Source: Kordiimonas sp.
GTDB taxonomy: Bacteria; Pseudomonadota; Alphaproteobacteria; Sphingomonadales; Kordiimonadaceae
Reading direction: 5' to 3'
Assembly (NCBI RefSeq): GCF_048260245.1
Contig: NZ_JBLXGZ010000011.1
Coordinates: 960 to 64,959, forward strand
DNA: 64,000 bases
A program made the position numbers and the translations under genes. Positions 16,651 to 35,979 of this stretch are shown here, piece by piece. Each line of letters begins with the position of its first letter. Position 1 is the first letter of the stretch. The notes under the pieces are model-generated. The model made no database searches. It saw only the letters and a list, made by a program, of their open reading frames with translations, and was not told where the DNA came from.

Positions 16651-17646
16651 TTATTTGGTCCGGCTGAATACGGGGCGCTTGGCCGCGCGGGTGTACTCGT
16701 AAGCGAGGCGCTGAACAATGGCGGCGGCCGGTTCAATCTTGTGAACGTTGCCAACGCCGTGTCCGGCGGACCAAACGTCGCGCCATGCTTTGATCTTGCC
16801 CTGAGAGTCAGCAAAGTCTGGGCCATCCTTGTGGCCGGGATTATCCGGGTTTATACCCATGCGTTTAAGACTGGCCTTAAGATAATATGCTTCAGCGCCA
16901 GACAGCGCGCTTGTGAGGATGAGGTCTTCAAACTCTGCGGCGAGCAACATTGATTTATAGTCTTCTCCGGCCATGCTTTCTTCCGCCGCGATAAAGCCGG
17001 TGCCCACATAGGCGAGGTCGGCACCAAGTATTTCCGCGGCACGTACGGCCTCTCCGTTTGATATGCTGCCTCCAAGGATAAGGGGCCCGTCAAAAAAGGC
17101 GCGGACGGCCGTCACGAAAGCGAAGGCTGACATGGCTCCCGTGTGGCCTCCAGCGCCAGCTGAGACAAGCACAAGCCCGTCAGCGCCAGCCTGCAGTGCT
17201 TTCTTCGCATAAGGCACGTTATTAACGTCAGCAAACACAAGCCCGCCATAGGCGTGCACCACATCGGTTATAGCGCCAGGGCTGCCGAGCGCGGTAATGA
17301 CGACAGGCGGTTGGTATTTTTTCACAAGCTCTAGCTCAGCCTTCAGCCGGTCATAGGAGCGATGCGCAACCATATTAGCCGCGAAAGGCCCGATGGGAGC
17401 GTCTGGTTCGGATTCAAGCCAACGAGAGCGTGTCTGGGTGATCGTACTCAGCCATTCATCCAGGTCGTCGATTGTGCGGGCGTTCGGGAAAGGAAGGCTT
17501 GCCATAACCCCTGCGCGCATGGCCGCTAACACAAGGTCCGGGCCGGAGACCAGAAACATCGGCGCGGCGACGACGGGTAATAGCATATTTGTCGTCAAGT
17601 GATTAAAGCGATCACGTACTGGTTGGCTGGAAGCGTTCAGGCGCAT
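16651..17646 (-). CDS. nitronate monooxygenase (NMO/2-nitropropane dioxygenase) family FMN oxidoreductase
   Basis: 331 aa. LPVVAAPMFLVSGPDLV and GGSISNGEAVRAAEILGADLAYVGTGFIAAEES are typical of the family. Confidence 0.85.
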   Translation of the reverse strand: MRLNASSQPVRDRFNHLTTNMLLPVVAAPMFLVSGPDLVLAAMRAGVMASLPFPNARTIDDLDEWLSTITQTRSRWLESEPDAPIGPFAANMVAHRSYDRLKAELELVKKYQPPVVITALGSPGAITDVVHAYGGLVFADVNNVPYAKKALQAGADGLVLVSAGAGGHTGAMSAFAFVTAVRAFFDGPLILGGSISNGEAVRAAEILGADLAYVGTGFIAAEESMAGEDYKSMLLAAEFEDLILTSALSGAEAYYLKASLKRMGINPDNPGHKDGPDFADSQGKIKAWRDVWSAGHGVGNVHKIEPAAAIVQRLAYEYTRAAKRPVFSRTK

Positions 17647-17664
17647 TGTGTTCTCACGATTCTA

Positions 17665-17683
17665 TGACTTTCATAAAAATACC
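17665..17683 (+). promoter_or_regulatory. island motif copy a: TGACTTTCATAAAAATACC
   Basis: Matches the 19-bp consensus TTACTTKCATAAARATACC. It lies in the NMO/HCCA-isomerase divergent gap. Confidence 0.6.
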
Positions 17684-17733
17684 TATATTAGGCATAGCCG
17701 GAGCATCTCTGTTTGGCAATCGCTGTTCACATG

Positions 17734-17752
17734 TTACTTGCAAAATAATACC
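17734..17752 (+). promoter_or_regulatory. island motif copy b: TTACTTGCAAAATAATACC
   Basis: Second copy in the same gap, 45-63 nt upstream of ATG 17797. Confidence 0.6.
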
Positions 17753-17796
17753 AATACTCTATCTTACCAGGCAGGTTGCTGTTTTGGGAGGAAGGC

Positions 17797-18390
17797 ATGC
17801 GTTCGGAACTGATTTTTTATTTCGATTTTTCGTCGGCCTATTCATATATCGCCCAAGCTCGGATCGACGCGGTGTTTGCCGATGTTGATGCAGATATCCG
17901 CTGGCGGCCAATCTTGTTGGGAGCAATTTTCCGAGAAAACGGCTGGGTGCCGGTAAGCCCTGGCTCCCCCAAGGGTGACTATACTTTCCGTGATGTGGAA
18001 CGGACTGCACGGCTCGCGGGTCTTGAATTCGGTTGGCCGAAGATTTTTCCGTTTAACGGCATGCTGGCCGCTCGGCTGTTTTATGCTCTGGATAGCGTGG
18101 ATGCTGTGGCTTTTGCGCGGGCGGTGTTCCACGCGGCTTATGTATCTGGCCAGGATGTCACAAACCCGGCCGTGCTGGAGGGGCTGGTGGGCGATCTTGG
18201 TCTTGATTGTGCCGCGGTGACGGCACGTAGCGAGCTTGAGGAGGTGAAAGCCCGGCTCAGGGATGAAACGACGGCTGCGATGAAGGCAGGTGTTTTTGGT
18301 GCACCGAGTTTTGTTGTGAACGGGGAGGTCTTCTGGGGGGCCGACAGGATGACGGATGCCCGGGATTGGGCCGCAAGCGGCGGCTGGTAG
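17797..18390 (+). CDS. 2-hydroxychromene-2-carboxylate isomerase family protein (DsbA-like/GST-kappa fold)
   Basis: I moved the start to ATG 17797 after GGGAGGAAGG. LIFYFDFSSAYSY and VFGAPSFVVNGEVFWGADRM are hallmark blocks of the family. Confidence 0.85.
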   Translation: MRSELIFYFDFSSAYSYIAQARIDAVFADVDADIRWRPILLGAIFRENGWVPVSPGSPKGDYTFRDVERTARLAGLEFGWPKIFPFNGMLAARLFYALDSVDAVAFARAVFHAAYVSGQDVTNPAVLEGLVGDLGLDCAAVTARSELEEVKARLRDETTAAMKAGVFGAPSFVVNGEVFWGADRMTDARDWAASGGW

Positions 18391-18407
18391 CGAACGGAGA
18401 CATGTAA

Positions 18408-19646
18408 ATGGCGAATGATATATTTATCCTTGGTGGGCACCAGACTGATTTTGCGCGGAATTGGGCGCGCGAAGGCCTCGAGCTTATGGATATGTTTCGC
18501 GAAACGCTGGAACAGGGGCTGGCGGCAGCCGCTCTTGACGCGGCTGAAGTTGATGCGGCCCATGTGGGTAACTTTACCGCTGAGCTTTTCTGCAATCAGG
18601 GCCATTTGGGCGGTTTTCTTGCCGAAGCCGTGCCGGCAATGAGCGGTATCCCCGCTGGCCGGCATGAGGCCGCCTGTGCATCCAGCAGTATCGCTACCCT
18701 AGCGGCAACCGCTGAGATAGAGGCCGGGCGCTACGATATTGTTGCCGTGCTGGGTATTGAGATGATGCGCAACGTACCAGGTGATCAGGCGGCCCAATAT
18801 ATCGGCGGCCCTGCCATGTGGTCTGGCCATGAATGTCTGGACGTGAAATATCCATGGCCGCATATGTTTGCCCGTCTCGGGGACGAGTATGACCGGCGTT
18901 ACGGACTGAAGCATGAGCATCTGGCGGGCATCGCTGAAATTAACTATGCTAACGCGAAACGAAACCCCAATGCGCAAACCCGGGGCTGGGAGTTTAACGA
19001 TAAAAGTTTTACCGAGGACAGCGAGGCCAACCCGGTGATCGACGGTCGTATTCGCCGGCAGGACTGTGGTCAGGTCTCAGACGGCGCCGCTGTCGTGTTT
19101 CTTGCCAGTGAAAAGGGTGCGCGGGCCTACTGCCGTAAACGTGGTTTGGATATCGCTGCCCTGCCGCGTATCCGGGGCTGGGGCCATACCGTGGCCCCGA
19201 TCTCATTCGACGCGAAGCTTCGGGAAGGGCAGCAAGCCAACTCACCGTATATCTTTCCGCATGTTCGGGGGGCTATTGAGGCTGCGTTTGGACGTGCCGG
19301 GCTTTCTGGTGTGGCGGAATTGGACGCAATTGAGACCCACGACTGTTTCACGACCACGGAATATATGGCGATCGACCATTTTGGTATTACGGCGCCCGGC
19401 GAAAGCTGGAAGGCGGTGGAAGACGGTACCATTGCGTTTGATGGCCGCCTGCCGGTGAACCCCAGCGGCGGACTTATCGGGCTGGGCCACCCGGTTGGTG
19501 CCACCGGTGCGCGCATGCTTCTCGATGCATCCAGGCAGGTTGCGGGAAAAGCCGGTGATTATCAGGTAGATGGTGCGGGCACAGTTGCAACGCTCAATAT
19601 TGGCGGGAGTGCTACGACCACGGTGTCCTTCATCGTTGGTCGGTGA
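18408..19646 (+). CDS. SCP2/SCP-x-type thiolase-like protein
   Basis: 412 aa. Nucleophile context EAACASSSIA, HDCF motif (IETHDCFTTTE) and NPSGGLIGLGHPVGATG. Confidence 0.8.
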   Translation: MANDIFILGGHQTDFARNWAREGLELMDMFRETLEQGLAAAALDAAEVDAAHVGNFTAELFCNQGHLGGFLAEAVPAMSGIPAGRHEAACASSSIATLAATAEIEAGRYDIVAVLGIEMMRNVPGDQAAQYIGGPAMWSGHECLDVKYPWPHMFARLGDEYDRRYGLKHEHLAGIAEINYANAKRNPNAQTRGWEFNDKSFTEDSEANPVIDGRIRRQDCGQVSDGAAVVFLASEKGARAYCRKRGLDIAALPRIRGWGHTVAPISFDAKLREGQQANSPYIFPHVRGAIEAAFGRAGLSGVAELDAIETHDCFTTTEYMAIDHFGITAPGESWKAVEDGTIAFDGRLPVNPSGGLIGLGHPVGATGARMLLDASRQVAGKAGDYQVDGAGTVATLNIGGSATTTVSFIVGR

Positions 19647-19699: not shown

Positions 19700-21385
19700 T
19701 TACAGCAAGCCCCGCAGTTCGCTCCGGATCACCTTGTTCATACTGTTACGCGGTAACGTGTCGCCAAGCACCAATTGCTCGGGCCATTTGAATTTGGCGA
19801 CACCGCATTCAGCGAGATACGAGGTAAGTTCCGCCAGTGTCAGGGTTTCACCTGCGTTGGTGACAACTACAGCGGCGACCTTTTCTCCCATCACCCGGTC
19901 ACTAAAGCCGACGACCGCAGCTTCCGAAACAAGGGGATGGTCGGTGATTACATGATCCAATTCCTCGGGTGAGATGTTCATGCCCCCGCGGATGATCAGT
20001 TCCTTGCGGCGGCCAACAAAACGGTAAAAACGATTATCTTCCCCTCCGATCTCAAACAGGTCGCCGGTGCGGAAATATCCCTCATTATCAAAGACACCTT
20101 CGGTTTTAGCGGCGTCGCCCAGATAACCGTCAAATACATTGGGCCCAGTGATTAAAAGCTCACCGGCGATACCCGGTTCGGTGATCTCGCGGTCATCCGC
20201 CTGCCAGTCTACCAGTTTGGTACGGCAGCGGTTGGCAAACCGGTTGCTCCAGTTGATCTCAGGGCGCCCAAAACGCGGGAACAGTGTGGCCCGGACCTCG
20301 GGGTCCGGTATGTCGCTCGGCCCGCCGACCAGCCCGGCACCTTCGTTGGAACCGTAGAAATTGACAATCTCCACATCAAATAAATCCTTGAAACCCTTTG
20401 TCATGGAGGGGCTGAGCGGGGCTGAGCCTGACGCAATATAATCGACATGGCTCAGATCCACGGTCTTGTGCAGTTCCGTGTGTTGCAAAAACATATTGAG
20501 GACCGCAGGCGGCGCAATGGTATAGGCCACCTTCTCCGCAACAATTTGGGAGAGGAAAACCTGCAGGTCAAAGGGGTGGTGCATGACAAGGCAGGCTTTT
20601 GCCATGGGCCAGTAATACAGGAACCCTGAGATTGCCCCCATGTTGGTCAGCGGGAAGGGATTGAGCATAACCGCCCCGTCCCTGACGGGCGCAGCGTCAG
20701 CCACGGCGCCGACCTGACTGGTCCAGTGGTTGTGATGGCGCGGCACACCCTTGGGCACGCCGGTTGTGCCTGATGTCCAGCATATGGTGAAGATCTCGTT
20801 GGGCGAAATATCGGGGCGTGTGACGGTGGGGACGTCTTCATCAGCGTCGATAGTGGGAAAAAAGAGCAGGGCAACGTGTGTCCCCTTGGTTTGGCTGTTG
20901 TCTTCAAACGCCAAAATGGTGGTATCTGCCCCGAACGCCGCCGTGCGGTCCGCCAGATGATCTACACCCCGGAAAGCGGTAACGGTCAGATAGGCCCTGG
21001 CCTTCGTTACCTCTGCAGCGCGGGCCAATTCAAATCGGCCGTATTGCATTGGCATGGGGCTGATGATGGCGCCAAGCCGGTCAGTCGCGATATAGGCGAT
21101 GACAAGTTCCGCAATGTTGGGCAATTGCACGATGATCACATCACCGGTGCCGACGCCGTTTTCTGATAAAGTGCTGGCAAGACGGTCCGCAAGGCGTGAA
21201 ACCTGAGCATATGTCAGCCGACACGGTGCGCCTGCGACAAGGTCCTTGCGGTTAGGCGGATCAATCAGGGCAAGGCGGTCCGGCGCATCGTTGACCGCAT
21301 CGGCGATCAGGCTAGCGAAGGTGGTGTCACCCCACCAGCCGCGGTCTGTATACTGTTTGACGGTTTCGCTGTCAGTTGATCGCAT
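19700..21385 (-). CDS. AMP-dependent acyl-CoA synthetase/ligase
   Basis: 561 aa. AMP-binding motif TSGTTGVPKGV, YRTGDL-like FRTGDLF, and C-terminal NSMNKVIRSEL. Confidence 0.85.
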   Translation of the reverse strand: MRSTDSETVKQYTDRGWWGDTTFASLIADAVNDAPDRLALIDPPNRKDLVAGAPCRLTYAQVSRLADRLASTLSENGVGTGDVIIVQLPNIAELVIAYIATDRLGAIISPMPMQYGRFELARAAEVTKARAYLTVTAFRGVDHLADRTAAFGADTTILAFEDNSQTKGTHVALLFFPTIDADEDVPTVTRPDISPNEIFTICWTSGTTGVPKGVPRHHNHWTSQVGAVADAAPVRDGAVMLNPFPLTNMGAISGFLYYWPMAKACLVMHHPFDLQVFLSQIVAEKVAYTIAPPAVLNMFLQHTELHKTVDLSHVDYIASGSAPLSPSMTKGFKDLFDVEIVNFYGSNEGAGLVGGPSDIPDPEVRATLFPRFGRPEINWSNRFANRCRTKLVDWQADDREITEPGIAGELLITGPNVFDGYLGDAAKTEGVFDNEGYFRTGDLFEIGGEDNRFYRFVGRRKELIIRGGMNISPEELDHVITDHPLVSEAAVVGFSDRVMGEKVAAVVVTNAGETLTLAELTSYLAECGVAKFKWPEQLVLGDTLPRNSMNKVIRSELRGLL

Positions 21386-21409: not shown

Positions 21410-21428
21410 TTACTTGCATAAAGATACC
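21410..21428 (+). promoter_or_regulatory. island motif copy c: TTACTTGCATAAAGATACC
   Basis: Lies 25-43 nt upstream of the ligase start (opposite strand) and about 120-140 nt upstream of the tandem HxlR gene. Confidence 0.6.
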
Positions 21429-22559: not shown

Positions 22560-22578
22560 TAACTTTCAAAAACATACC
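22560..22578 (+). promoter_or_regulatory. island motif copy d: TAACTTTCAAAAACATACC
   Basis: Lies 40-58 nt upstream of ATG 22618, the first gene of the seven-gene operon. Confidence 0.6.
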
Positions 22579-24584: not shown

Positions 24585-24605
24585 ATACACGTGAGGGAGA
24601 AACAG

Positions 24606-29277: not shown

Positions 29278-29382
29278 TTATAGGGCGTGGGGCACTGCGT
29301 CAATTGAGAAGATGTGCGGCATAAGCCTATATATTTTCGGTATAAGCCTCGAATGGACAATGACGTTGGGGAGGATAAAAGT

Positions 29383-31233
29383 ATGATAAAGCAACTTGAT
29401 TTAGGGTCTATTCCTTACCGCTCAATCGACCTGCCGGCGGTCGATATCAGCCGTGTGGAACGCCCGGACGGGACCTTGATCCTTGAAAACAATATCGCCC
29501 TGCCGCCTTTCGATCCCCTGTTATATGGTCACCTGAAAAGACAGGCATCTGCGCAGCCAACAAAAACTGCACTGGCAGAGCGAAACCGGGAGACAGGTGA
29601 GTGGCGCTGCCTCAGCTTTGCGGAGATGTTTGCTTATGTATGTTCGGCCGCGCAGGGGCTGCTCAATCTGGGTGGCGGCCCTGACCGGCCATTGATGATC
29701 CTGTCCGGTAACAGTATAGCCCATGCGCTGATGCGGTTTGGCGCCATTGTCGCTGGTGTGCCGGTATGCCCGGTGAGCGAAAACTATGCGCTGATGCCCG
29801 GAAGCCATGACCGGTTGAAACATGTGTATCAACTGGTGAAGCCTGGTATTTTGTTTGCGGAAGGCGGCGCGCCCTTTAATGCGGCTCTTTTATCGCTGGG
29901 GCTTGATGGTCAAACGGTGATCAGCGCCGATCCAGACGGTCTACCCGTGCCGGGACTTAAACTTGAAACCCTGTTAAACACGGTGCCAGCGCCGGACCTT
30001 GAGACACACATCCTCAGCCGTGACCCGGACCAGCACGCAGCCTATATGCTGACCTCGGGCTCCACTGGCCGGCCAAAGGCGGTGGTCCACAGCCAGCGTA
30101 TGGTATTGACAAGCCTGTTTCAGGCGTATGCCGTATTGGGCGAGGCCATGGGCTGGCAGGATCGTTTGCTGGACTGGCTGCCCTGGAGTCATGTCTCAGG
30201 CGCGACCAACTTGACGGGCGCTACAGTTTTTGGCGGTAGCTTTTATGTCGATGACGGTAAACCCGCGCCGGGCCTTTTTGAGAAAACCCTTCGTAATCTT
30301 AAAGATCTCTCCGTGCCGTACTTCGCCAATGTGCCCTTTGGCTATGCGATGCTGGTGGATGCACTGGAGGCAGATGCCGACCTGAGGCGTGCTTTTTTCA
30401 AGAATCTGCATCTTATGCTTTATGGTGGGGCTGGCTTGCCGCAAGCGACGTATGAGCGCCTTCAGTCGATGGCTGTCGAAGAAGTAGGGGCCAGAATATT
30501 CATTACCACTGGTTACGGCGCTACTGAAACGACATCGGGATGCATGGCAATTTTCTTTGATAGCCATATGGTTGGCGTTGGCCTGCCGTTGCCGGGTCTT
30601 ACTGTCAAGTTGGTGCCGGCGGGAGATGCGTTTGAGGTGCGAATGAAGGGCGACAATGTGATGTCGGGCTATCTCGATGACCCGGCTCAAACGTCTAAAA
30701 GTTTTGACGAGGAGGGCTTCTACCAACTTGGTGACAAGTTAAATTTTCATGAACCAGACAATATCGCGGCAGGCTTATATTTTGCTGGGCGACTGGCGGA
30801 GGAGTTCAAGTTAGGGACAGGGTCCTGGGTATCGGGCGGCAGGGTGCGCGGTGGGCTGATTGCGGCGCTGTCGCCACTGGTTAGTGATCTTATTCTTTGC
30901 GGCGAAGGGCGTGATGAACTGGCAGTTTTGGCGGTGCCGAACGCCTTGGGGCTCGCGGGCCTCGCTGGAGGTGAGGTGGCTGGGAACCCGCTGGAAAATA
31001 TTGCCATCAGGCGGGCGATGTCCGGGAAGCTGCAAAGCTGGAACGCTGCCAACCCCGGGAAATCAACGCGTATCGGGCGCTTTGCCTTTCTTGAAAAACC
31101 GCTCAGTGCTGACTGTCACGAGGTTTCGGATAAAGGCACGATCAACCAAGCGGCTGCTATCCGCAACCGAGCGGAGGAAGTGGAGCAGCTATACGCAGAT
31201 AGTCCGGGCGAATTTGTTTTGGCTTGTGACTGA
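29383..31233 (+). CDS. AMP-binding acyl-CoA synthetase, feruloyl-CoA-synthase-like
   Basis: I moved the start to ATG 29383 after GGGGAGGATAAAAGT. LTSGSTGRPKAV motif, GYGATETT, and a long N-terminal region like Fcs-type ligases. Confidence 0.8.
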   Translation: MIKQLDLGSIPYRSIDLPAVDISRVERPDGTLILENNIALPPFDPLLYGHLKRQASAQPTKTALAERNRETGEWRCLSFAEMFAYVCSAAQGLLNLGGGPDRPLMILSGNSIAHALMRFGAIVAGVPVCPVSENYALMPGSHDRLKHVYQLVKPGILFAEGGAPFNAALLSLGLDGQTVISADPDGLPVPGLKLETLLNTVPAPDLETHILSRDPDQHAAYMLTSGSTGRPKAVVHSQRMVLTSLFQAYAVLGEAMGWQDRLLDWLPWSHVSGATNLTGATVFGGSFYVDDGKPAPGLFEKTLRNLKDLSVPYFANVPFGYAMLVDALEADADLRRAFFKNLHLMLYGGAGLPQATYERLQSMAVEEVGARIFITTGYGATETTSGCMAIFFDSHMVGVGLPLPGLTVKLVPAGDAFEVRMKGDNVMSGYLDDPAQTSKSFDEEGFYQLGDKLNFHEPDNIAAGLYFAGRLAEEFKLGTGSWVSGGRVRGGLIAALSPLVSDLILCGEGRDELAVLAVPNALGLAGLAGGEVAGNPLENIAIRRAMSGKLQSWNAANPGKSTRIGRFAFLEKPLSADCHEVSDKGTINQAAAIRNRAEEVEQLYADSPGEFVLACD

Positions 31234-31280: not shown

Positions 31281-31296
31281 GTAAGGCGAAAAACCC

Positions 31297-31325: not shown

Positions 31326-31808
31326 CTAATGTTTTTCAAGAGCTGGGCTGTCGATTTCACGGATCCCCATTTGGCCGAGTAACTGAGCCCGGTCATAATA
31401 TTCGCGCCATTCCTGTACATGGCCGTCCTTGATTACAAGTACGCCGACCACTGGCACAGCACCGTGTAGATCACCGATGTTGAAATCGTCTACCCTTTCC
31501 AGGAAAACGACGTTTCCGTTTACGGCAACATTCTTGAGTGTCAGTTCCAGACGGGTTGCGCCGTTCAATACCGCGCCGATATGAGTGCGCAGCATTTCAC
31601 GGCCCTGAATGGGGTCAATCATCACCGAATGCAGCACGCCGTCTTCGGCGAACAATTCAGCGATGCGATTGACGTCGAGGTCGTTCCAGGCCTGGACCAT
31701 CGCATTTGCGACCTCCAGTGCGCCGGTTTCTTCATCAGATTGCGCGCAGACCTGAGGGCTGGCAGCGAGGAGCAGCCCGATTGCTGCGGTTTTGAGACTT
31801 TTGATCAT
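31326..31808 (-). CDS. secreted NTF2-fold protein, limonene-1,2-epoxide-hydrolase-like
   Basis: The track start at 31943 overlaps the receptor gene. ATG 31808 gives MIKSLKTAAIGLLLAASPQVCAQSDEE (signal peptide) and 160 aa. The block IKDGHVQEWREYYD is LEH-like. Confidence 0.65.
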   Translation of the reverse strand: MIKSLKTAAIGLLLAASPQVCAQSDEETGALEVANAMVQAWNDLDVNRIAELFAEDGVLHSVMIDPIQGREMLRTHIGAVLNGATRLELTLKNVAVNGNVVFLERVDDFNIGDLHGAVPVVGVLVIKDGHVQEWREYYDRAQLLGQMGIREIDSPALEKH

Positions 31809-31878: not shown

Positions 31879-34203
31879 TTAGAAATCCAGCGAGAGTTCG
31901 AAACCGTAGGTCCGCGGGGTTCCAAGGGTGGACACTTCATCACCCAAAAAGGCGATGATGTTCGTGCGGTATAAGGTGTTGGTCAGGTTTTTGCCCCAGA
32001 CCGAGAAAGTCCAATTGGCGTCTGCCGGGCTGAGGCTGATGCGGGCATCAAGAAGGCCGTAACTATCCTCATACTGGAAGTTGTCCGGCAGCCAATATAG
32101 TTTGCCTTGCTGGGAGTAGTTGACCCGCATGCTGAGCGCATCACTCATGTCCATGAAGTCGGTGGTCAGCTCTGCGCCCACATTAAACTGATAGTTTGGT
32201 GTACGCTGTAGGTTGCCGCCTGAATTATCCAGGCCGTTGCCGTCAATGAAGTCCTTATACTCGGTATCGAGCAAAGTGCCCGCTGCCCATAGGAATAGCG
32301 CATCGGTTACGACAAACTGCAACTCGGTCTCGACGCCGCGGATCGTCGCATCCGCGGCATTATCGGTGATGTTGCAAAGGCAACCGTCATCGGTCTGGGT
32401 AACCTGAAGGTTTTTGTAGTCCATGGAGAAAGCGGCGGTGTTGAGCCGGGCCCGGCCGTCGAGAAATTCCCACTTCATGCCAAGCTCGAAACTGGTCACT
32501 GTCTCCGGATCATAGGCGATCTGCGCAGCGGTGGCATTGGCGGGCGTGTCTTCAAACCCGCCCCCTTTATACCCTTTGGCCGCACTGGCGTAGAGCATGA
32601 TGTCCGTGGTTGGTGTGAACTCTAGTATCGCTTGTGGTGTAACCTCGCTCCAGCTTTCGCCATAGTCGGTGGTGAAACTTTCACCTTCAAGCAAACCGAC
32701 AATCGGGGTCAGGGAGACGGGGTCGTCAGGGTTGAACTGGTCGCCGGTCTCGATCGCGGTGCCGGTGACAGTACCGGTTTTTTTGTCATGAGAGTAACGC
32801 ACGCCTGCGGTCAGCTTCCAGGCTTCGGCAAACTGATAGCCAGCTTGCGCAAAGGCAGCATAGTTGGTTGTTTTACCCACGTTGTCCCAATGGGATTCGC
32901 CGGAGATAGTGGGTAGCGGGAACGGAATTTCGCCCCAATATTTGTCGAACTTGTCCACTTTGTCATGCTGGAAATAGGCGCCGACGATCCAGTCGAACTT
33001 GCTATCGGCATAATCGCTGGTGAGCCTGAGTTCCTGACTGATCTGTTTAATGTCTTCTTCTTCGTTCACAGGGAACGAGAATGCGAACGGGCTGATTACA
33101 CCAAACCCGCTGTCCGGTCCTGCGCCCGATTGATCATACACACCTGTCGCGTCACCACTGCGGTACCCTGTGATACTGGTCAGGACCATGTCGTCACCCA
33201 ACGGCTTTTCCATATTCAGGGTGATACTGAAGGCTTCACGGTCATGGCCCTGGGGGGTGTCAAAACTGTCCCCTTTGTAGCGCGGGTGCTCAGGCAGACT
33301 TTCGCGGATATCAAGTCCTCCCTCACGGTTTGCGGCAATAAAGGCACGGGTGGTGCTCCATGGATTGGCGCCGGGGTTGTTCGGGTCAGGGATAGCGACC
33401 CGATGAATACCGTTGGAGCTGTCTTTCATATAATCGATGATCAGGCGCGCCTGAAAATCGGAATCGTCCGGTGTGAACATCAACTGACCGCGCATCTGGA
33501 TAGAATCAAGATTGTCCAAGTCCCGCTCATGCAACACATCACGGTTATATCCGTCATGGTGACGTGCCTGAAAAGAGAAGCGTCCGGAAACGCTGTCGCT
33601 CAAGCCGCCAGTGACGTAGCCTGACGCATGCACGGCATTATAGTTACCGTAGCCGAACGTCATGTGCGCCACCCCTTCTTGCTGCGGCTTTGCCGTGATG
33701 ATGCTGATAGCGCCACCAACAACATTTCGTCCCAGAAGTACACCTTGCGGTCCGCGAACAACCTCTACGCGCTCAATGTCGTAAAAATCTGCGTTCAGTA
33801 GTCCGGAGCGGCCAACATAAACGTCATCGACAAAAATGCCGATCGATTGGTCGGCTGATGGCGCGTCAAGGCGAGTGTTGGTAATGCCCCGGATGTTGAA
33901 CTCCTGATCGAGTGGCGAATTCTCAGTGTAAGAAAGTGACGCCACGCTGCGCGCTAGGTCAGAGTAGTTATAGATACGATCTTTTTCGAGAGTGGCGCCT
34001 GTTACTGCCGATACCGCCAGAGCACTATCTTGCAGCCCAACCTCCCGACGTTGGGACGTGATGACAATTTCCTCCAGTCTGGAGACTGTTTCGGCGTCTT
34101 GTTCAGCGATTCCGGTATCTGCGGTTTGGCCTGCGTAAGTGGCTGACGAGGCGAGCAGAGCCGTCATGACCGCAACAAAAGATGTTGCTGTTTTATAATG
34201 CAT
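31879..34203 (-). CDS. TonB-dependent receptor
   Basis: I moved the start to ATG 34203 after GGAAGGAAACAGAC. Signal peptide MHYKTATSFVAVMTALLASSATYAG; plug EEIVITSQRREVGLQDSALAVSAV; terminal ELSLDF with C-terminal Phe. Confidence 0.9.
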   Translation of the reverse strand: MHYKTATSFVAVMTALLASSATYAGQTADTGIAEQDAETVSRLEEIVITSQRREVGLQDSALAVSAVTGATLEKDRIYNYSDLARSVASLSYTENSPLDQEFNIRGITNTRLDAPSADQSIGIFVDDVYVGRSGLLNADFYDIERVEVVRGPQGVLLGRNVVGGAISIITAKPQQEGVAHMTFGYGNYNAVHASGYVTGGLSDSVSGRFSFQARHHDGYNRDVLHERDLDNLDSIQMRGQLMFTPDDSDFQARLIIDYMKDSSNGIHRVAIPDPNNPGANPWSTTRAFIAANREGGLDIRESLPEHPRYKGDSFDTPQGHDREAFSITLNMEKPLGDDMVLTSITGYRSGDATGVYDQSGAGPDSGFGVISPFAFSFPVNEEEDIKQISQELRLTSDYADSKFDWIVGAYFQHDKVDKFDKYWGEIPFPLPTISGESHWDNVGKTTNYAAFAQAGYQFAEAWKLTAGVRYSHDKKTGTVTGTAIETGDQFNPDDPVSLTPIVGLLEGESFTTDYGESWSEVTPQAILEFTPTTDIMLYASAAKGYKGGGFEDTPANATAAQIAYDPETVTSFELGMKWEFLDGRARLNTAAFSMDYKNLQVTQTDDGCLCNITDNAADATIRGVETELQFVVTDALFLWAAGTLLDTEYKDFIDGNGLDNSGGNLQRTPNYQFNVGAELTTDFMDMSDALSMRVNYSQQGKLYWLPDNFQYEDSYGLLDARISLSPADANWTFSVWGKNLTNTLYRTNIIAFLGDEVSTLGTPRTYGFELSLDF

Positions 34204-34319
34204 GTCTGTTTCCTTCCCCATGGTGTCCCGGCGCCGCCTTCCCTGCCGCGCCCCCTTGCTGGTCGTTTGATCCGAAAGGGGTGGGAGCCTCCGGTTATCA
34301 CGTTAAGCGCGATATAGTA

Positions 34320-34338
34320 GGTATGTCAATGCAAGTTT
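34320..34338 (-). promoter_or_regulatory. island motif copy f: AAACTTGCATTGACATACC (minus-strand reading)
   Basis: Lies 117-135 nt upstream of the receptor start at 34203 and is oriented with that gene. Confidence 0.6.
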
Positions 34339-34410
34339 ATATAGGAGTGGGTAAATAGAAAAATATCGGCTTATTAATAACATTAATAGGTCTTGTCGTG
34401 AGGGTTCTAA

Positions 34411-34429
34411 TTAGTTTTATAAAAATACC
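34411..34429 (+). promoter_or_regulatory. island motif copy g: TTAGTTTTATAAAAATACC
   Basis: Lies in the 570-bp receptor/thiolase divergent gap. Confidence 0.5.
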
Positions 34430-34543
34430 AAAGGTTGAAAGGAAACCTACAGCGTCGTCGGAAGTGCTTGAAAATCAGCAGCTATTTGTCTGCGAACAAT
34501 CGCCAAAGTAGCGTTTTTCTATTTGTTGGTATTGACCCTAGCA

Positions 34544-34562
34544 TAAATTGCATACCGATACC
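34544..34562 (+). promoter_or_regulatory. island motif copy h: TAAATTGCATACCGATACC
   Basis: Same gap, 212-230 nt upstream of ATG 34774. Confidence 0.5.
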
Positions 34563-34681
34563 ATAAATGCCGAATGCCGGGTAAATCCGTTGGTGGCGAT
34601 CCTCGTGGAAGCTAAAAATAGGAAAAAAATATCGATTCTTTGTCAGGGTCAGAGTCATTGACAGCGCGGTTTTGCCTCAAT

Positions 34682-34700
34682 AGTATTGTTAAGCAAGTTA
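34682..34700 (-). promoter_or_regulatory. island motif copy i: TAACTTGCTTAACAATACT (minus-strand reading)
   Basis: Same gap, 74-92 nt upstream of ATG 34774. This is the weakest of the nine copies. Confidence 0.45.
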
Positions 34701-34773
34701 TGTAGCAGCTGACCATTAGCTGGCCATGGCCGGTGCCGTTCCGGGCCGCGCTTATCAAGGTCCGGAGAACTTT

Positions 34774-35979
34774 ATGTCCCCAGTATTTATCCTAGACGCC
34801 CTTCGTACACCCCGCGGCAAAGCCCGGCACGGCGGGGGCCTGAGCACCACAAAGCCGGTCGATATGGTGGCGACTTTGTTACGAGCGGTAGAAAAGAGAA
34901 CCGCCTTCCCGACAGGCAGGGTAGAAGATGTCTTGCTGGGATGTGTAACCCAGATCGGAGATCAGGGAGGCAACGTGGCGCGCACGGCGGTGTTGGTGGC
35001 TGACTGGCCTGCCAAGGTGCCCGGCTTGATGATTAATCGCTTTTGTACATCAGGTCTGGATGCGGCGGTGCTTGCCGGTGCCAAGCTATCGTCAGGCATG
35101 AATGATATCATAATCGCGGGCGGTGTTGAAGCGATGTCGCGGGTGCCGATCCTGTCCGATAATGGTGCGTATTATGCCGACCCGGATATTGCTGCCCGTG
35201 CGCCTTTTGTGCCGTTGGGAATCGCGGCTGATCTTGTTGCGAGCCTGGACGGTATTTCGCGACAAGAGGCCGATGCATATGCCGTCTTGACGCAGGCACG
35301 TGCGGCTGATGCGCGGTCAAAGAGCTATTTCACCAAATCGCTGATCGCGGTGCCTTCACCGGACGGTGGCGCGCCGTTCACCGAGGATGAAACCATACGT
35401 GACGGTGTGACAGCTGAAAGCCTTGCTGCTCTTGAACCATCCTTTGATGGCATAGGCGCAGGCCACTACGACAGATTGGCGCTTGCCCGGTTTAACGAGG
35501 TTGGCGCGGTCCGGCATATTCATACGCCGGGTAACTCTCCCGCGATGGCGGACGGAGCCTCTTTGCTGCTGATGGCAAACCAGCAGGCTGTTCAACACCA
35601 TGGGTTCAAGCCCAGGGCGCGGCTGCGGTCGGTCGCAAATACCAGCGTTGATCCTGTGCTGATGCTGACAGGTGGCATAGAGGCTTCAAAAATTGCCCTG
35701 ACCCGCGCGGGCATGACGGCTGCGGATATTGATTTGGTGGAATTTAACGAGGCGTTTGCCGCGGTTACCATCAAGTTTATCCGTGACATGGGCTTTAAAG
35801 AAGATCAGGTGAATGTGAATGGCGGTGCCATTGCGCTTGGCCACGCAATGGGGGCGACGGGTACCAGTTTGATCGGCACCGTGCTCGATGAGTTGGAGCG
35901 CCGTGGCCTCTCAACCGGTCTGGTGGCAATCTCCGGCGGGGCTGGTGTGGGCACCGCGGTCATTATCGAGCGCGTGTAG
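34774..35979 (+). CDS. thiolase family protein (acetyl-CoA C-acyltransferase type)
   Basis: I moved the start to ATG 34774 after GGAGAAC (MSPVFILDALRTPRGKAR). Nucleophile context NRFCTSGLDA, NEAFAAV, and GGAIALGHAMGATG. The usual C-terminal CxGGGxG reads ISGGAGVG (see findings). Confidence 0.85.
   Translation: MSPVFILDALRTPRGKARHGGGLSTTKPVDMVATLLRAVEKRTAFPTGRVEDVLLGCVTQIGDQGGNVARTAVLVADWPAKVPGLMINRFCTSGLDAAVLAGAKLSSGMNDIIIAGGVEAMSRVPILSDNGAYYADPDIAARAPFVPLGIAADLVASLDGISRQEADAYAVLTQARAADARSKSYFTKSLIAVPSPDGGAPFTEDETIRDGVTAESLAALEPSFDGIGAGHYDRLALARFNEVGAVRHIHTPGNSPAMADGASLLLMANQQAVQHHGFKPRARLRSVANTSVDPVLMLTGGIEASKIALTRAGMTAADIDLVEFNEAFAAVTIKFIRDMGFKEDQVNVNGGAIALGHAMGATGTSLIGTVLDELERRGLSTGLVAISGGAGVGTAVIIERV

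What the first reader, a model, noticed from the sequence alone, without database searches (positions are those of the whole stretch)
16651..35979. Catabolic island of unassigned substrate combining TonB-dependent uptake, a carotenoid-cleavage-type oxygenase, CoA activation and thiolysis, and five NTF2-fold proteins
Between 16.6 and 36.0 kb the genes are as follows. First come an NMO-family FMN enzyme, an HCCA-isomerase-like protein, an SCP2-type thiolase, an acyl-CoA ligase and the tandem HxlR. Next is a tightly packed seven-gene operon (gaps of 0-38 nt, several overlapping stop/start codons) encoding an SDR, a DapB-like dehydrogenase, a four-His carotenoid oxygenase, DUF1295, SnoaL_4, an SDR and SnoaL_4. 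Then follow an LEH-like NTF2 protein, a feruloyl-CoA-synthase-like ligase, a secreted LEH-like protein, a TonB-dependent receptor and a degradative-type thiolase. The mix suggests import of a bulky hydrophobic compound across the outer membrane, oxidative cleavage of a conjugated C=C bond, oxidation, CoA thioesterification and chain shortening. An apocarotenoid/isoprenoid or a stilbene/phenylpropanoid-type substrate would fit. Several expected partners are absent from the window: enoyl-CoA hydratase/aldolase, acyl-CoA dehydrogenase, ring-cleaving dioxygenase and P450. The abundance of NTF2-fold proteins (possible hydratases, isomerases or epoxide hydrolases) suggests chemistry not covered by textbook pathways. 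I do not recognise this gene order as any characterised cluster.
Basis: inference. Interest (0 to 1): 0.6.

Follow-up and report, generated by a model that had tools for sequence, protein, structure and literature searches.

The report
Conserved alkene-cleaving oxygenase breakdown regulon
Seventeen neighbouring genes in this marine Kordiimonas-like bacterium share one control site and are built around an iron oxygenase that cuts carbon-carbon double bonds; they probably import and break down an oily, non-phenolic polyene, plausibly carotenoid-derived, by a route I found described nowhere.

Summary
The gene list at 16651-35979 holds: 17 of 17 genes have the stated Pfam families. One correction: I count four NTF2-fold proteins, not five.

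The block is one regulon. A 19-nt site occurs 7 times (0.07 expected) and its strong copies occur nowhere else in the 3.9-Mb genome.

The oxygenase is the genome's only RPE65-family gene. It belongs to a tight clade (62-86% identity) spread over Alpha- and Gammaproteobacteria. The recurring core is a tandem HxlR regulator, the oxygenase, an SCP2-type thiolase, DUF1295 and a FadA-like thiolase. The full 17-gene form recurs in two other species of the genus and in Caulobacterales/Maricaulaceae.

It is not a lignostilbene dioxygenase. The phenol-binding Tyr101 and Lys134 are missing in 21 of 21 clade members and present in 8 of 8 true ones.

The partners suit an unsaturated, methyl-branched acyl chain: two C=C-reductase-like proteins, an MFE-2-type dehydrogenase, NTF2 dehydratase-like proteins, two ligases and two thiolases.

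The substrate is inferred only; carotenoid-derived polyene is the leading guess. Nine literature searches found no description.

This scan met the same regulon before on at least seven other genomes, with the same unchecked reading. This is a further instance, not a first sighting.

The parts
16651..17646 (-). NMO-family FMN protein, closest to FabK-type enoyl-thioester reductases
   Evidence: Pfam NMO 72.9 bits. Best solved relatives are enoyl-ACP reductase II at 72 bits; nitronate monooxygenases score 40-44 bits.
17665..17752 (+). Two operator copies (17665-17683 and 17734-17752) between the divergent NMO and DSBA/thiolase units
   Evidence: 28.0 and 26.4 bits.
17776..18390 (+). DSBA-fold protein (HCCA-isomerase-like), 17 nt upstream of the SCP2-type thiolase
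   Evidence: Pfam DSBA 122 bits. Found at 40% identity or more in only 1 of 80 related loci (L001), and also in L168 and L176.
18408..19646 (+). SCP2-type thiolase with a complete catalytic set
   Evidence: NF004936 638.6 bits, above the cut-off of 375. Best solved relative is the trypanosomatid SCP2-thiolase 4bi9 at 162 bits. The Cys nucleophile, the HDCF loop and the GHP motif align.
19700..21385 (-). Acyl-CoA ligase 1 (AMP-binding)
   Evidence: Pfam 208 bits. It is below every NCBIfam cut-off; the best is PRK06187 at 265 against 476.
21410..21428 (+). Operator copy between ligase 1 and the regulator gene
   Evidence: 27.1 bits; 0 mismatches to the consensus.
21551..22546 (+). Single-chain tandem HxlR regulator, the presumed reader of the operator
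   Evidence: Pfam HxlR with 2 stretches. Orthologues beside the oxygenase in other genomes show two HxlR stretches in 7 of 8 checked.
22560..22578 (+). Operator copy ahead of the seven-gene operon
   Evidence: 26.7 bits.
22618..23529 (+). SDR1, MFE-2-type (3R)-hydroxyacyl-CoA dehydrogenase-like
   Evidence: Best solved relative is 2et6 at 224.8 bits, followed by the dehydrogenase domains of fly, rat and human MFE-2.
22964..22982 (-). Operator copy inside the SDR1 coding region, inverted relative to the copy at 22560
   Evidence: 2 mismatches; 25.5 bits. A 31-nt inverted repeat joins 22554-22584 and 22958-22988.
23526..24584 (+). DapB_N-like NAD(P) oxidoreductase related to 2,4-diaminopentanoate and native amine dehydrogenases; role unexplained
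   Evidence: NF040740 99 bits against a cut-off of 400. Best solved relatives are 6g1h and 6g1m at about 77 bits, and amine dehydrogenases at 32-35 bits.
24591..26081 (+). Carotenoid-cleavage-type (RPE65 family) four-His iron oxygenase; the only one in the genome
   Evidence: Pfam 407 bits. Single PF03055 match in G000. Residues and tree.
26120..26917 (+). DUF1295 membrane protein with the fold of NADPH-dependent C=C reductases
   Evidence: Pfam 231 bits. AF2 pLDDT 92.9. VIA-align Z 14.4 to 4quv, 13.7 to 7c83 and 12.4 to 7bw1 over 201-231 residues; ICMTs align over 173 residues only.
26919..27461 (+). SnoaL_4 NTF2 protein a, dehydratase-like
   Evidence: Pfam 84 bits. AF2 pLDDT 82.6. Foldseek top hits are 3ef8, BaiE 7-alpha-dehydratases, LinA and scytalone dehydratase, E 8e-11 to 2e-7.
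27461..28195 (+). SDR2
   Evidence: Pfam 123 bits. NF006118 284 bits, above the cut-off of 279; the family carries only a generic name.
28213..28740 (+). SnoaL_4 NTF2 protein b, paralogue of a (40% identity)
   Evidence: Pfam 66 bits. Alignment A2.
28771..29193 (-). Cytoplasmic LEH/SnoaL_2-type NTF2 protein
   Evidence: Pfam SnoaL_2 67.6 and LEH 52.2 bits. Weak match of 37 bits to metagenomic limonene epoxide hydrolases.
29259..29277 (+). Operator copy between the LEH-like gene and ligase 2
   Evidence: 26.0 bits.
29314..31233 (+). Acyl-CoA ligase 2 (PRK12582-like)
   Evidence: NF009232 636.7 bits, below the cut-off of 777. Terminator-like hairpins at 31259-31314 on both strands.
31326..31808 (-). 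Secreted LEH-like NTF2 protein, downstream of the receptor gene
   Evidence: Pfam LEH 53.3 bits. Signal-like N-terminus when read from the Met at 31808.
31879..34221 (-). TonB-dependent outer-membrane receptor
   Evidence: Plug and barrel domains.
34320..34700 (.). Four operator copies (34320-, 34411+, 34544+, 34682-) in the 550-nt divergent region between the receptor and thiolase 2
   Evidence: 13.3, 26.5, 15.2 and 16.4 bits. The copy at 34682 overlaps the -10 element of the best sigma-70-like match, 34658-34686. That scan as a whole is not above chance.
34774..35979 (+). FadA-like thiolase 2 with Ser at the acid/base Cys position
   Evidence: NF006090 491 bits against a cut-off of 514. Best solved relatives are 3svk at 380 bits and M. 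tuberculosis FadA (Rv0859) at 371 bits. Active-site columns.

Best explanation
This is a self-contained catabolic regulon for an imported, lipophilic, non-phenolic unsaturated compound. The most plausible substrate is an isoprenoid polyene such as a carotenoid or apocarotenoid.

Proposed working (inferred unless marked):
1. The TonB-dependent receptor takes the compound across the outer membrane. The secreted NTF2 protein may carry or modify it in the periplasm.
2. The single four-His oxygenase cuts a C=C bond to give carbonyl products.
3. The membrane DUF1295 protein and the FabK-like FMN protein reduce conjugated C=C bonds.
4. Two ligases make CoA esters.
5. NTF2 dehydratase-like proteins add or remove water next to the carbonyl.
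6. The MFE-2-type dehydrogenase oxidises the 3-hydroxyacyl-CoA.
7. The SCP2-type thiolase (for 2-methyl-branched chains) and the FadA-like thiolase (for straight chains) release propionyl- and acetyl-CoA.

A chain that is already unsaturated needs no acyl-CoA dehydrogenase, which would explain why none is present. The tandem HxlR protein probably controls all nine transcription units through the 19-nt site. By analogy with its family it may respond to an aldehyde or other electrophile made by the pathway.

Shown here: gene content, the shared site, synteny, clade separation, active-site residues and folds. Not shown: any activity, the substrate, or the regulator-site pairing.
For: One regulon:
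- The site TTACTTKCAWAAAVATACC has 7 matches at up to 3 mismatches against 0.07 expected.
- All 11 weight-matrix hits of 12 bits or more in the 64-kb window lie between 17665 and 34700.
- In the 3.9-Mb genome the seven hits of 25 bits or more are all in the island, and the next best scores 19.4.
- Every promoter-bearing gap of the island holds at least one copy.

Conserved module:
- Oxygenase orthologues at 67-85% identity occur in at least 584 genome stretches.
- In the 80 best loci, at 40% identity or more, the SCP2-type thiolase is present in 44, DUF1295 in 29, thiolase 2 in 22 and NMO in 17.
- At looser cut-offs the tandem HxlR is present in 43, and it sits divergently within 300 nt of the oxygenase in 18.
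- 16 of the 17 genes recur in the same order in another species of the genus (L168).
- Elsewhere an MFS transporter, a third ligase or DUF1302/DUF1329 outer-membrane proteins sit beside the core.
- The site recurs in 31 of the 80 loci.

Not phenol-directed: Tyr101 and Lys134 are absent in 21 of 21 clade members and present in 8 of 8 above-cut-off lignostilbene dioxygenases (residue roles from PMC8191317). The clade is one side of a branch with support 100.

Partner functions:
- SDR1 is closest to the MFE-2 dehydrogenase.
- The SCP2-type thiolase has an intact HDCF loop.
- The NMO protein is closest to FabK.
- The DUF1295 model is closest to sterol and steroid C=C reductases, and UsgR, which its authors describe as DUF1295-similar, is a proven ene-reductase (PMC8597850).
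- The SnoaL_4 model is closest to BaiE and scytalone dehydratases.

Substrate likely exogenous: I found no rhodopsin (though the control genomes did not ring either) and no desaturase next to the single SQS_PSY match.
Against: - There is no expression, growth or enzyme evidence of any kind. No RNA run holds the stretch.
- The oxygenase is only about 28-31% identical to the curated-family members I fetched, so its bond and substrate cannot be read from homology.
- No aldehyde dehydrogenase, crotonase or MaoC hydratase is in the regulon or in the 50 window ORFs scanned. The carboxylate that the ligases need therefore has no obvious source, unless housekeeping enzymes or the SDRs supply it.
- Thiolase 2 has Ser at the acid/base Cys and may not be a normal thiolase.
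- The LEH-like proteins lack the Arg of the epoxide-hydrolase triad (triad recalled from memory).
- The DapB-like protein resembles amine dehydrogenases, which the model does not use.
- The weight matrix was built from the seven island sites, so its concentration there is partly circular. A reversed-matrix control gives 34 weak hits genome-wide against 40 real ones.
- The carotenoid guess rests on the nearest solved relative being a plant carotenoid 9,10-dioxygenase (229 bits) and on pathway logic, not on a test.
Confidence: 0.6

Rival explanations
1. The same regulon degrades a different unsaturated lipid, not a carotenoid derivative. Examples are isoprenoid quinone side chains, polyprenols, squalene-type or algal long-chain alkenes, aryl polyenes, or oxidised polyunsaturated fatty acids.
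For: Everything that supports a co-regulated alkene-cleaving catabolic unit fits this equally well. The substrate is not fixed by any result. DUF1302/DUF1329 and MFS partners in other genomes point only to a hydrophobic or acidic solute.
Against: In the cases I know from recall, RPE65-family enzymes act on conjugated or aryl-conjugated double bonds. The pairing of an SCP2-type thiolase with an MFE-2-type dehydrogenase points to methyl-branched chains, which narrows the field toward isoprenoids. The best solved relative is a carotenoid 9,10-dioxygenase.
Confidence: 0.22
2. The island degrades lignin-derived stilbenes or phenylpropanoids. The oxygenase would act as a lignostilbene or isoeugenol-type dioxygenase and the ligase/thiolase set would run a CoA-dependent side-chain shortening.
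For: NCBIfam's top row for the oxygenase is the lignostilbene family (224 bits). From recall, NTF2 proteins, SDRs and a GST-like fold also occur in sphingomonad lignin-dimer pathways.
Against: The score of 224 bits is far below the cut-off of 800. The 4-hydroxyl-binding Tyr101 and Lys134 are replaced in 21 of 21 clade members and kept in 8 of 8 true enzymes (PMC8191317). The clade is separated from lignostilbene dioxygenases with support 100. No aromatic-aldehyde dehydrogenase, demethylase or ring-cleavage gene is in the regulon. The hosts are mostly marine or freshwater oligotrophs.
Confidence: 0.06
3. The unit is not nutritional catabolism. It is a stress or detoxification regulon, or a lipid-remodelling one, switched on by reactive electrophiles or aldehydes through the HxlR-type regulator.
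For: From recall, HxlR-family regulators such as HxlR and HypR answer to aldehydes or oxidants. NCBIfam's only hits for the regulator are the redox-responsive RrpA and RrpB models, below their cut-offs. Ene-reductase-like proteins and SDRs are typical detoxifiers of enals.
Against: A dedicated TonB-dependent receptor, two CoA ligases and two thiolases point to uptake and carbon harvest rather than detoxification. In other genomes the core travels with further uptake proteins.
Confidence: 0.08
4. The block is a chance neighbourhood of several unrelated operons with no common pathway.
For: It comprises nine transcription units on both strands. Only the core (regulator, oxygenase, SCP2-type thiolase, DUF1295, thiolase 2) is widely conserved. 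Several members (the DSBA-fold protein, the DapB-like protein, SDRs, ligase 2, the receptor) occur in 1 to 12 of 80 loci.
Against: The 19-nt site marks every promoter region of the block and, in strong form, nothing else in the genome. 16 of the 17 genes recur in the same order in L168, and most recur in L001-L003, L040, L047, L048 and L054.
Confidence: 0.04

Closest known systems
Lignostilbene-alpha,beta-dioxygenase-initiated catabolism of lignin-derived stilbenes in Sphingobium sp. SYK-6 (PMC8191317; abstract and passages read)
   Same: A four-His RPE65-family iron oxygenase cuts an alkene as one step of a bacterial catabolic route. Phe59 and the four His are conserved.
   Different: Identity is 27.6-29.2%. 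The NCBIfam score is 224 against a cut-off of 800. Tyr101 and Lys134 are absent. The clade is separate. The partners are thiolases, ligases and C=C-reductase-like proteins, not enzymes for aromatic aldehydes and ring cleavage.
Carotenoid 9,10-dioxygenase (PDB 9m6z, 9m3e, 9luz; I recall this as the plant CCD1 type)
   Same: It is the highest-scoring solved relative (229 bits over residues 24-490) and has the same fold family.
   Different: The relation is distant. That enzyme is eukaryotic and makes apocarotenoids (recalled). Here the enzyme sits in a bacterial CoA-dependent catabolic regulon, and its bond specificity is untested.
8'-apo-carotenoid 13,14-cleaving dioxygenase family (NCBIfam NF052295)
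   Same: It lies on the same side of the midpoint-rooted quick tree as this clade (branch support 94). These are bacterial carotenoid-type enzymes.
   Different: The score is 223 bits against a cut-off of 675. Identity to seven above-cut-off members is about 29-31%. That family forms its own clade with support 100.
Branched-chain beta-oxidation pair: MFE-2 (3R)-hydroxyacyl-CoA dehydrogenase with an SCP2/SCPx-type thiolase (established knowledge of peroxisomal pristanate and bile-acid side-chain oxidation)
   Same: SDR1's best solved relatives are MFE-2 dehydrogenase domains. The thiolase is SCP2-type with the HDCF loop.
   Different: There is no hydratase-2 domain and no acyl-CoA oxidase or dehydrogenase. 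The pair is tied to an alkene-cleaving oxygenase, NTF2 proteins and an outer-membrane receptor.
NTF2-fold dehydratases: bile-acid 7-alpha-dehydratase BaiE and scytalone dehydratase
   Same: They are the top characterised structural neighbours of the SnoaL_4 model. This offers a candidate for the water addition or removal step that a crotonase would normally supply.
   Different: Identity is only 14-24%. I did not test whether catalytic residues correspond. Two paralogues are interleaved with SDRs in one operon.
HxlR/HypR-type winged-helix regulators
   Same: The HxlR Pfam domain is present, and the gene sits divergently beside the genes it would control.
   Different: Two HxlR modules are fused in one chain (7 of 8 orthologues), and the site is asymmetric and 19 nt long. 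Binding is untested.

Membership tests
RPE65 / carotenoid cleavage oxygenase superfamily | Full-length match to PF03055 above the gathering score | tested here: met
   407.2 bits against a cut-off of 27, covering profile positions 2-468 of 469.
RPE65 / carotenoid cleavage oxygenase superfamily | Four iron-binding histidines | tested here: met
   His is present in all four columns in the window protein and in all 35 aligned rows.
Lignostilbene-alpha,beta-dioxygenase (NF053778 / NF053780) | Score at or above the curated equivalog cut-off | tested here: not met
   224.1 bits against 800, and 196.5 against 650.
Lignostilbene-alpha,beta-dioxygenase (NF053778 / NF053780) | Tyr101 and Lys134, which hydrogen-bond the substrate's 4-hydroxyl (PMC8191317) | tested here: not met
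   The window has Ala and Tyr at these columns. The clade has A/M/V/T and Y/W/F in 21 of 21 rows. Eight of 8 above-cut-off family members have Tyr and Lys.
Lignostilbene-alpha,beta-dioxygenase (NF053778 / NF053780) | Phe59, which stacks on the phenol ring | tested here: met
   Phe is present in all 35 rows, so the column does not discriminate.
8'-apo-carotenoid 13,14-cleaving dioxygenase (NF052295) | Score at or above the curated cut-off, and placement inside the family's clade | tested here: not met
   223.3 bits against 675. The seven above-cut-off members form their own branch with support 100.
SCP2-type thiolase | Curated model above its cut-off, nucleophilic Cys, HDCF-loop Cys and GHP His | tested here: met
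   NF004936 scores 638.6 against 375. All three motifs align with the SCP2-thiolase 4bi9. The roles of the motifs are recalled from memory.
Degradative (FadA-type) 3-ketoacyl-CoA thiolase | Nucleophilic Cys, Asn of NEAF, His of GHP | tested here: met
   The NRFCTSG, FNEAF and ALGHAMG motifs are present.
Degradative (FadA-type) 3-ketoacyl-CoA thiolase | C-terminal acid/base Cys (CxG motif) | tested here: not met
   Ser stands where the solved relatives 3svk and Rv0859 have Cys. Of the 26 homologues from other loci, the 16 gammaproteobacterial or unclassified copies, the one L021 copy and two distant second copies keep Cys. The nine other alphaproteobacterial copies have His, Ser, Leu, Phe or Thr. 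The NF006090 score is 491 against 514.
Limonene-1,2-epoxide hydrolase | Asp-Arg-Asp catalytic triad (residues recalled from memory, not from a call) | tested here: inconclusive
   Pfam LEH scores 52-53 bits. In the 37-bit alignment to 5aif, the Arg of the chain's ERTD motif faces Gly, while the Asp residues and the WRDYFD motif are kept. The alignment is weak.
Membrane NADPH-dependent C=C reductases (steroid 5-alpha-reductase and sterol reductase fold) | Full-length structural match | tested here: met
   Z 14.4 over 231 residues (4quv), 13.7 over 212 (7c83) and 12.4 over 201 (7bw1). Foldseek probability is 0.99-1.00 for the first two and 0.57 for 7bw1, and its E-values are weak at 0.025-1.6. 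For helical bundles the tool warns that Z below about 13 can be non-specific.
Membrane NADPH-dependent C=C reductases (steroid 5-alpha-reductase and sterol reductase fold) | NADPH-binding and catalytic residues, as opposed to the SAM-binding residues of ICMT-type methyltransferases | not tested
   ICMTs also match (Z 11-12) over the C-terminal 173 residues. I made no residue-level comparison.
HxlR family regulators | HxlR winged-helix domain | tested here: met
   PF01638 scores 118 bits in two stretches.
FabK-type FMN enoyl-thioester reductase | Equivalog score | tested here: not met
   TIGR03151 scores 76.7 bits against 453. FabK proteins are only the nearest solved relatives.

The most novel reading that the evidence does not exclude
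The oxygenase works on CoA-bound intermediates, not only on the free pigment. With the two thiolases that sit in its operon in many genomes, it would form an oxygen-dependent bypass of the 3-methyl block that stops beta-oxidation of isoprenoid polyene chains. NTF2 hydratases or isomerases and two ene-reductases would replace the usual crotonase and acyl-CoA dehydrogenase steps. This would be a new biochemical solution that lets common aquatic bacteria fully mineralise carotenoids.
Probability: 0.12. Interest if true: 0.85.

Novelty: new variant of a known kind. Interest (0 to 1): 0.6.

Why it matters
From general knowledge, carotenoids and related polyenes are made in very large amounts by algae and plants, yet no complete bacterial pathway for consuming them is in the literature I could search.

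This regulon offers a concrete, compact and widely distributed candidate. It has a defined regulator and operator, one oxygenase per genome in this host, and culturable hosts (Kordiimonas, Maricaulis, Phenylobacterium, Zhongshania, Microbulbifer).

It also points to under-studied enzymology:
- an RPE65-family clade without the phenol-binding pair
- DUF1295 as a possible catabolic ene-reductase
- NTF2 proteins as stand-in hydratases
- a thiolase lineage that has lost its acid/base cysteine
- a single-chain double HxlR regulator

If the substrate turns out to be something else, the same tests would still assign a function to a gene set present in hundreds of genomes.

Tried and rejected
Expression. 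The look-up of sequencing runs listed no RNA holder. Four DNA runs of one 2011 study hold the stretch.

I built the synteny from the search for related loci and the fetch from genomes instead.

Regulon members elsewhere in the genome. The weight-matrix scan gave only weak hits outside the island, 19.4 bits or less. These were no more numerous than with a reversed matrix (40 against 34). I listed the ORFs around four of them, did not annotate them, and do not claim them.

Fused forms. A search among longer proteins gave three single-member clusters. They are a thiolase+RPE65 protein labelled Symbiodinium, an SDR+DUF1295+RPE65 protein, and one with unrelated domains. I treat these as merged gene models or contamination, not as evidence of fusion.

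Insertion site. I searched five genomes of the genus for the flanking receptor and PBP1C. The flanks are too poorly conserved to define an empty site. The species with the full island (G015) gave no PBP1C match at E 1e-100 or better.

Own carotenoid or retinal use. There is one SQS_PSY match with no amine-oxidase-type desaturase beside it. There was no rhodopsin match, but that model rang in no control genome either, so the blank is weak.

Lignin beta-1 analogy. The sequence search with SnoaL_4a at E 0.01 or better returned only Rv3472, a putative scytalone dehydratase and LinA. I cannot say whether a diarylpropane lyase structure is in that library.

Promoter scan. It found 16 sigma-70-like matches against 12.8 expected, which is not above chance.

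Tree. The careful treekit search did not finish in 300 s, so I report the quick tree. I left out row L184, an over-long ORF call at the same place as L202. L202's own ORF call (755 aa) is also over-long.

Literature. Nine searches found no paper on this cluster. 'Carotenoid oxygenase' with DUF1295 gave 0 papers, and with HxlR 0 papers. Supplementary files were not consulted and subscription-only papers are not covered, so a description could exist there.

Full report
WHAT IS THERE

In order they are:
- an NMO-family FMN protein (-)
- a DSBA-fold protein and an SCP2-type thiolase (+)
- an AMP ligase (-)
- a 331-aa protein with two HxlR modules (+)
- a seven-gene operon: SDR, DapB_N-like oxidoreductase, RPE65-family oxygenase, DUF1295, SnoaL_4, SDR, SnoaL_4. 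It has overlaps of 4 and 1 nt and gaps of 6, 38, 1 and 17 nt.
- an LEH/SnoaL_2 protein (-)
- a second ligase (+)
- a TonB-dependent receptor followed by a signal-bearing LEH-like protein (-)
- a FadA-like thiolase (+)

I have two corrections. Only four NTF2-fold proteins lie inside the coordinates. The last thiolase has Ser where the acid/base Cys should be.

The flanks are unrelated. On the left are an amidohydrolase, a LysR/DHDPS-like/DAO set, DUF885 and another receptor. On the right are alpha-2-macroglobulin with PBP1C, and a purine/urate catabolic cluster. None of the 50 window ORFs I scanned is a crotonase, MaoC hydratase, acyl-CoA dehydrogenase, aldehyde dehydrogenase or P450.

ONE REGULON

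- The repeat finder recovers it.
- The degenerate pattern has 7 matches at up to 3 mismatches against 0.07 expected. None of 100 shuffles reached 7.
- A weight matrix built from those seven sites gives 11 hits of 12 bits or more in the 64-kb window, all between 17665 and 34700. Nine are intergenic. One lies inside SDR1 and one weak copy lies inside the regulator gene.
- Each of the five promoter-bearing gaps holds at least one copy. The 550-nt receptor/thiolase gap holds four.
- Over the whole 3.9-Mb genome, the seven hits of 25 bits or more are all in the island, and the next best scores 19.4. Weak hits (40) are no more frequent than with a reversed matrix (34).

The matrix comes from the island's own sites, so the last result is partly circular. 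The shuffle test is not circular. I conclude that the island is a single regulon and, as far as this matrix can see, the whole of it.

CONSERVATION

The host is Kordiimonas-like. The window's PBP1C is 77% identical to that of K. aestuarii, and the next best hits are other Kordiimonas. The oxygenase is the genome's only PF03055 gene.

Relatives at 67-85% identity were found in at least 584 genome stretches, and the 80 best were kept. They come from:
- Caulobacterales and Maricaulaceae: Phenylobacterium, Maricaulis, Oceanicaulis, Marinicauda, Euryhalocaulis
- Sphingomonadales
- Gammaproteobacteria: Zhongshania, Microbulbifer, Simiduia, Bermanella, Arenicella

Presence of the window's proteins in those 80 loci, at 40% identity or more and 60% coverage or more:

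| Protein | Loci of 80 |
|---|---|
| SCP2-type thiolase | 44 |
| DUF1295 | 29 |
| thiolase 2 | 22 |
| HxlR | 18 |
| NMO | 17 |
| LEH (cytoplasmic) | 16 |
| ligase 1 | 14 |
| each SnoaL_4 | 13 |
| SDR1, DapB-like, SDR2 | 12 each |
| ligase 2, secreted LEH, receptor | 9 each |
| DSBA | 1 |

Many loci are cut short by contig ends, so these are lower bounds.

With looser cut-offs the tandem HxlR is present in 43 of 80. It sits divergently within 300 nt of the oxygenase in 18. The SCP2-type thiolase directly follows the oxygenase on the same strand in 18, thiolase 2 in 9 and DUF1295 in 22. Seven of eight regulator orthologues I checked show two HxlR stretches.

The gammaproteobacterial form is minimal: the regulator divergent from oxygenase, thiolase, thiolase. 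Other partners seen elsewhere are an MFS transporter next to the regulator, a third AMP ligase, and DUF1302/DUF1329 outer-membrane proteins.

The 19-nt matrix also hits 31 of the 80 loci, with 67 hits of 14 bits or more in 1.41 Mb. Many of these lie at regulator/oxygenase or ligase gaps. I ran no shuffle control on the loci. The genome control would predict roughly a dozen hits.

Within the genus, 9 of 24 other species sampled have a match. Two carry the full island:
- G002 (which is L001) at 86% identity
- G015 (L168) at 81%, with 16 of the 17 genes in the same order. Thiolase 2 would lie beyond the stretch I fetched.

Six others carry only the regulator, oxygenase, SCP2-type thiolase and a DUF1295-like gene. 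Thiolase 2 is added in two of them. Their identity is 62-67%.

In the quick tree the full-island oxygenases group with Euryhalocaulis (support 96), not with the other Kordiimonas copies. The full island has therefore probably moved horizontally. The direction is not resolved.

WHAT KIND OF OXYGENASE

It falls far below the curated cut-offs of all three NCBIfam equivalogs:

| Family | Score (bits) | Cut-off |
|---|---|---|
| lignostilbene dioxygenase | 224 | 800 |
| NOV2 type | 196 | 650 |
| 8'-apo-carotenoid 13,14-dioxygenase | 223 | 675 |

Among solved structures the best hit is a carotenoid 9,10-dioxygenase at 229 bits. Lignostilbene dioxygenase follows at 192 bits, and NOV1, ACO and VP14 score about 140-147 bits.

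[quoted passage not shown] It also states that Tyr-101 and Lys-134 hydrogen-bond the substrate's 4-hydroxyl.

I fetched eight proteins above the family cut-off from Sphingomonadaceae genomes and aligned them with 21 members of the window's clade and six other homologues.
- The eight have F/Y/K at exactly positions 59, 101 and 134.
- All 21 clade members keep Phe.
- None of the 21 keeps Tyr; they have A, M, V or T.
- None of the 21 keeps Lys; they have Y, W or F.
- The four His are invariant in all 35 rows.

A quick maximum-likelihood tree of 41 rows puts each of three groups on its own branch with support 100: the clade (21 rows), the lignostilbene enzymes (8) and the 13,14-apocarotenoid enzymes (7). 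The clade lies on the apocarotenoid side of the midpoint root (support 94).

So this is a distinct, uncharacterised clade. It is unlikely to act on 4-hydroxystilbenes or isoeugenol-type phenols.

THE PARTNERS

- SDR1: its best solved relatives are the (3R)-hydroxyacyl-CoA dehydrogenase domains of MFE-2 (225 bits for 2et6, then fly, rat and human).
- SCP2-type thiolase: it passes its curated model and aligns with the trypanosomatid SCP2-thiolase. The nucleophilic Cys, HDCF loop and GHP motif are all intact. From established knowledge, MFE-2 together with an SCP2-type thiolase is the pair that handles 2-methyl-branched acyl-CoAs.
- Thiolase 2: it resembles M. tuberculosis FadA (371 bits) but has Ser at the acid/base Cys. 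The gammaproteobacterial copies keep Cys. The nine other alphaproteobacterial copies have His, Ser, Leu, Phe or Thr. Eight of those nine have Met in place of the NEAF asparagine; L004, like the window, keeps Asn.
- NMO protein: it is nearer to FabK enoyl-thioester reductases (72 bits) than to nitronate monooxygenases (40-44 bits).
- DUF1295: a confident model (pLDDT 92.9) matches the sterol delta-14 reductase and steroid 5-alpha-reductases over its full length. Z is 14.4, 13.7 and 12.4 over 231, 212 and 201 residues. ICMT methyltransferases match only the C-terminal 173 residues. A fungal protein (UsgR) that its authors describe as similar to DUF1295 was shown to be an ene-reductase of an activated C=C bond (PMC8597850, passages read).
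- SnoaL_4: the model (pLDDT 82.6) is closest to a putative scytalone dehydratase, to BaiE bile-acid 7-alpha-dehydratases, to LinA and to scytalone dehydratase (E 8e-11 to 2e-7). These are NTF2 enzymes that remove or add HX next to a carbonyl.
- LEH-like proteins: they match limonene epoxide hydrolases weakly. The Arg of the recalled catalytic triad aligns with Gly.
- DapB-like protein: it resembles 2,4-diaminopentanoate and native amine dehydrogenases (77 bits). Its role is unexplained.
- Ligase 2: it has no close solved relative.

HOW IT MOST LIKELY WORKS

All steps below are inferred.
1. The receptor, and perhaps the periplasmic NTF2 protein, import a hydrophobic unsaturated compound.
2. The oxygenase cuts a C=C bond.
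3. Two reductase-like proteins remove conjugated double bonds.
4. The ligases form CoA esters.
5. NTF2 dehydratase-like proteins and the MFE-2-type dehydrogenase create 3-oxoacyl-CoAs.
6. The SCP2-type and FadA-type thiolases release propionyl- and acetyl-CoA.

A substrate that is already a polyene needs no acyl-CoA dehydrogenase, which fits the absence of one. Alternating 2-methyl and unbranched units, as in a carotenoid chain, would need exactly two kinds of thiolase.

The genome shows no obvious carotenoid or retinal pathway of its own (this evidence is weak), so the substrate is probably external.

The tandem HxlR probably controls everything through the 19-nt site. One copy overlaps the -10 element of the best promoter-like match before thiolase 2. 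That hints at repression, but the promoter scan is not above chance.

WHAT ARGUES AGAINST, AND THE RIVALS

No activity, induction or growth datum exists, and no RNA run holds the stretch.

The regulon contains no aldehyde dehydrogenase. The atypical thiolase 2, the triad-less LEH-like proteins and the amine-dehydrogenase-like protein are not accounted for.

My estimates for the readings are:

| Reading | Confidence |
|---|---|
| Polyene (carotenoid-type) catabolic regulon, the main reading | 0.60 |
| Another unsaturated lipid as substrate | 0.22 |
| Electrophile-stress regulon | 0.08 |
| Lignin-stilbene route | 0.06 |
| Chance neighbourhood | 0.04 |

The stilbene route is argued against by the residue test. 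The chance neighbourhood is argued against by the operator and the synteny.

KNOWN OR NEW

Nine full-text searches found no description. Subscription-only papers and supplements were not covered.

The scan itself has met this regulon before on other genomes. Examples are e1-4186652 in Maricaulis, e1-2591433 in Phenylobacterium, e1-5260574, e1-3056920, e1-5206026, e1-5275599 and e1-5140348. The reading and the verdict were the same each time. Those are unchecked AI notes and I do not count them as evidence.

What this window adds:
- a Kordiimonas instance, with both the minimal and the full form present within one genus
- a direct residue test against true lignostilbene dioxygenases
- fold evidence for DUF1295 and SnoaL_4
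- the FabK-like and MFE-2-like assignments
- the genome-wide confinement of the operator

I class it as a new variant of a known kind: an oxygenase-initiated, CoA-dependent catabolic cluster that is distinct from the lignostilbene pathways.

Noticed in passing
window 35932-35934; related loci: The thiolase that travels with the oxygenase keeps its acid/base Cys in gammaproteobacterial copies. In alphaproteobacterial copies the position is Ser (here and in L004), His, Leu, Phe or Thr. Eight of the nine other alphaproteobacterial copies have Met in place of the NEAF asparagine; L004, like the window, keeps Asn. This suggests a repurposed active site in one lineage.
   Followed up: partly
window 24591-26081; L168-L174; tree: The genus holds two oxygenase lineages. 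A minimal four- or five-gene module is at 62-67% identity. The full island's oxygenase groups with Maricaulaceae (support 96). This is consistent with horizontal transfer of the full island. In G015 the island does not lie next to a PBP1C homologue.
   Followed up: partly
window 22554-22584 and 22958-22988: The operator ahead of the seven-gene operon and an inverted copy 373 nt downstream, inside the SDR1 coding region, form a 31-nt inverted repeat that is 81% complementary. This could serve DNA looping or a roadblock.
   Followed up: no
window 13377-16173: A second pair of a TonB-dependent receptor and a small secreted protein lies just left of the island, outside the operator's range. The small protein gave only a sub-threshold PliI match.
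   Followed up: no
L176 (G026:C4:344500-364400): A relative in the same order carries a second, 46%-identical oxygenase next to NMO, a receptor, a DSBA-fold gene and a tandem HxlR gene. The window's island may therefore combine two older modules.
   Followed up: no
protein P0002: An 885-aa protein labelled 'fadA, partial [Symbiodinium sp. KB8]' joins thiolase domains to an RPE65 domain that is 53% identical to the window's oxygenase. It is probably bacterial DNA in an algal assembly, read as one gene.
   Followed up: no
window 45126-56912: A complete-looking purine/urate catabolic cluster: xanthine dehydrogenase subunits and XdhC, a Urate_ox_N-family (urate oxidase N-terminal) protein, OHCU decarboxylase, allantoicase, ureidoglycolate lyase, a GntR regulator and malate synthase.
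   Followed up: no
window 23526-24584: The DapB_N-like protein of the operon is related to 2,4-diaminopentanoate and native amine dehydrogenases. No nitrogen-containing substrate is otherwise suggested by the island.
   Followed up: partly
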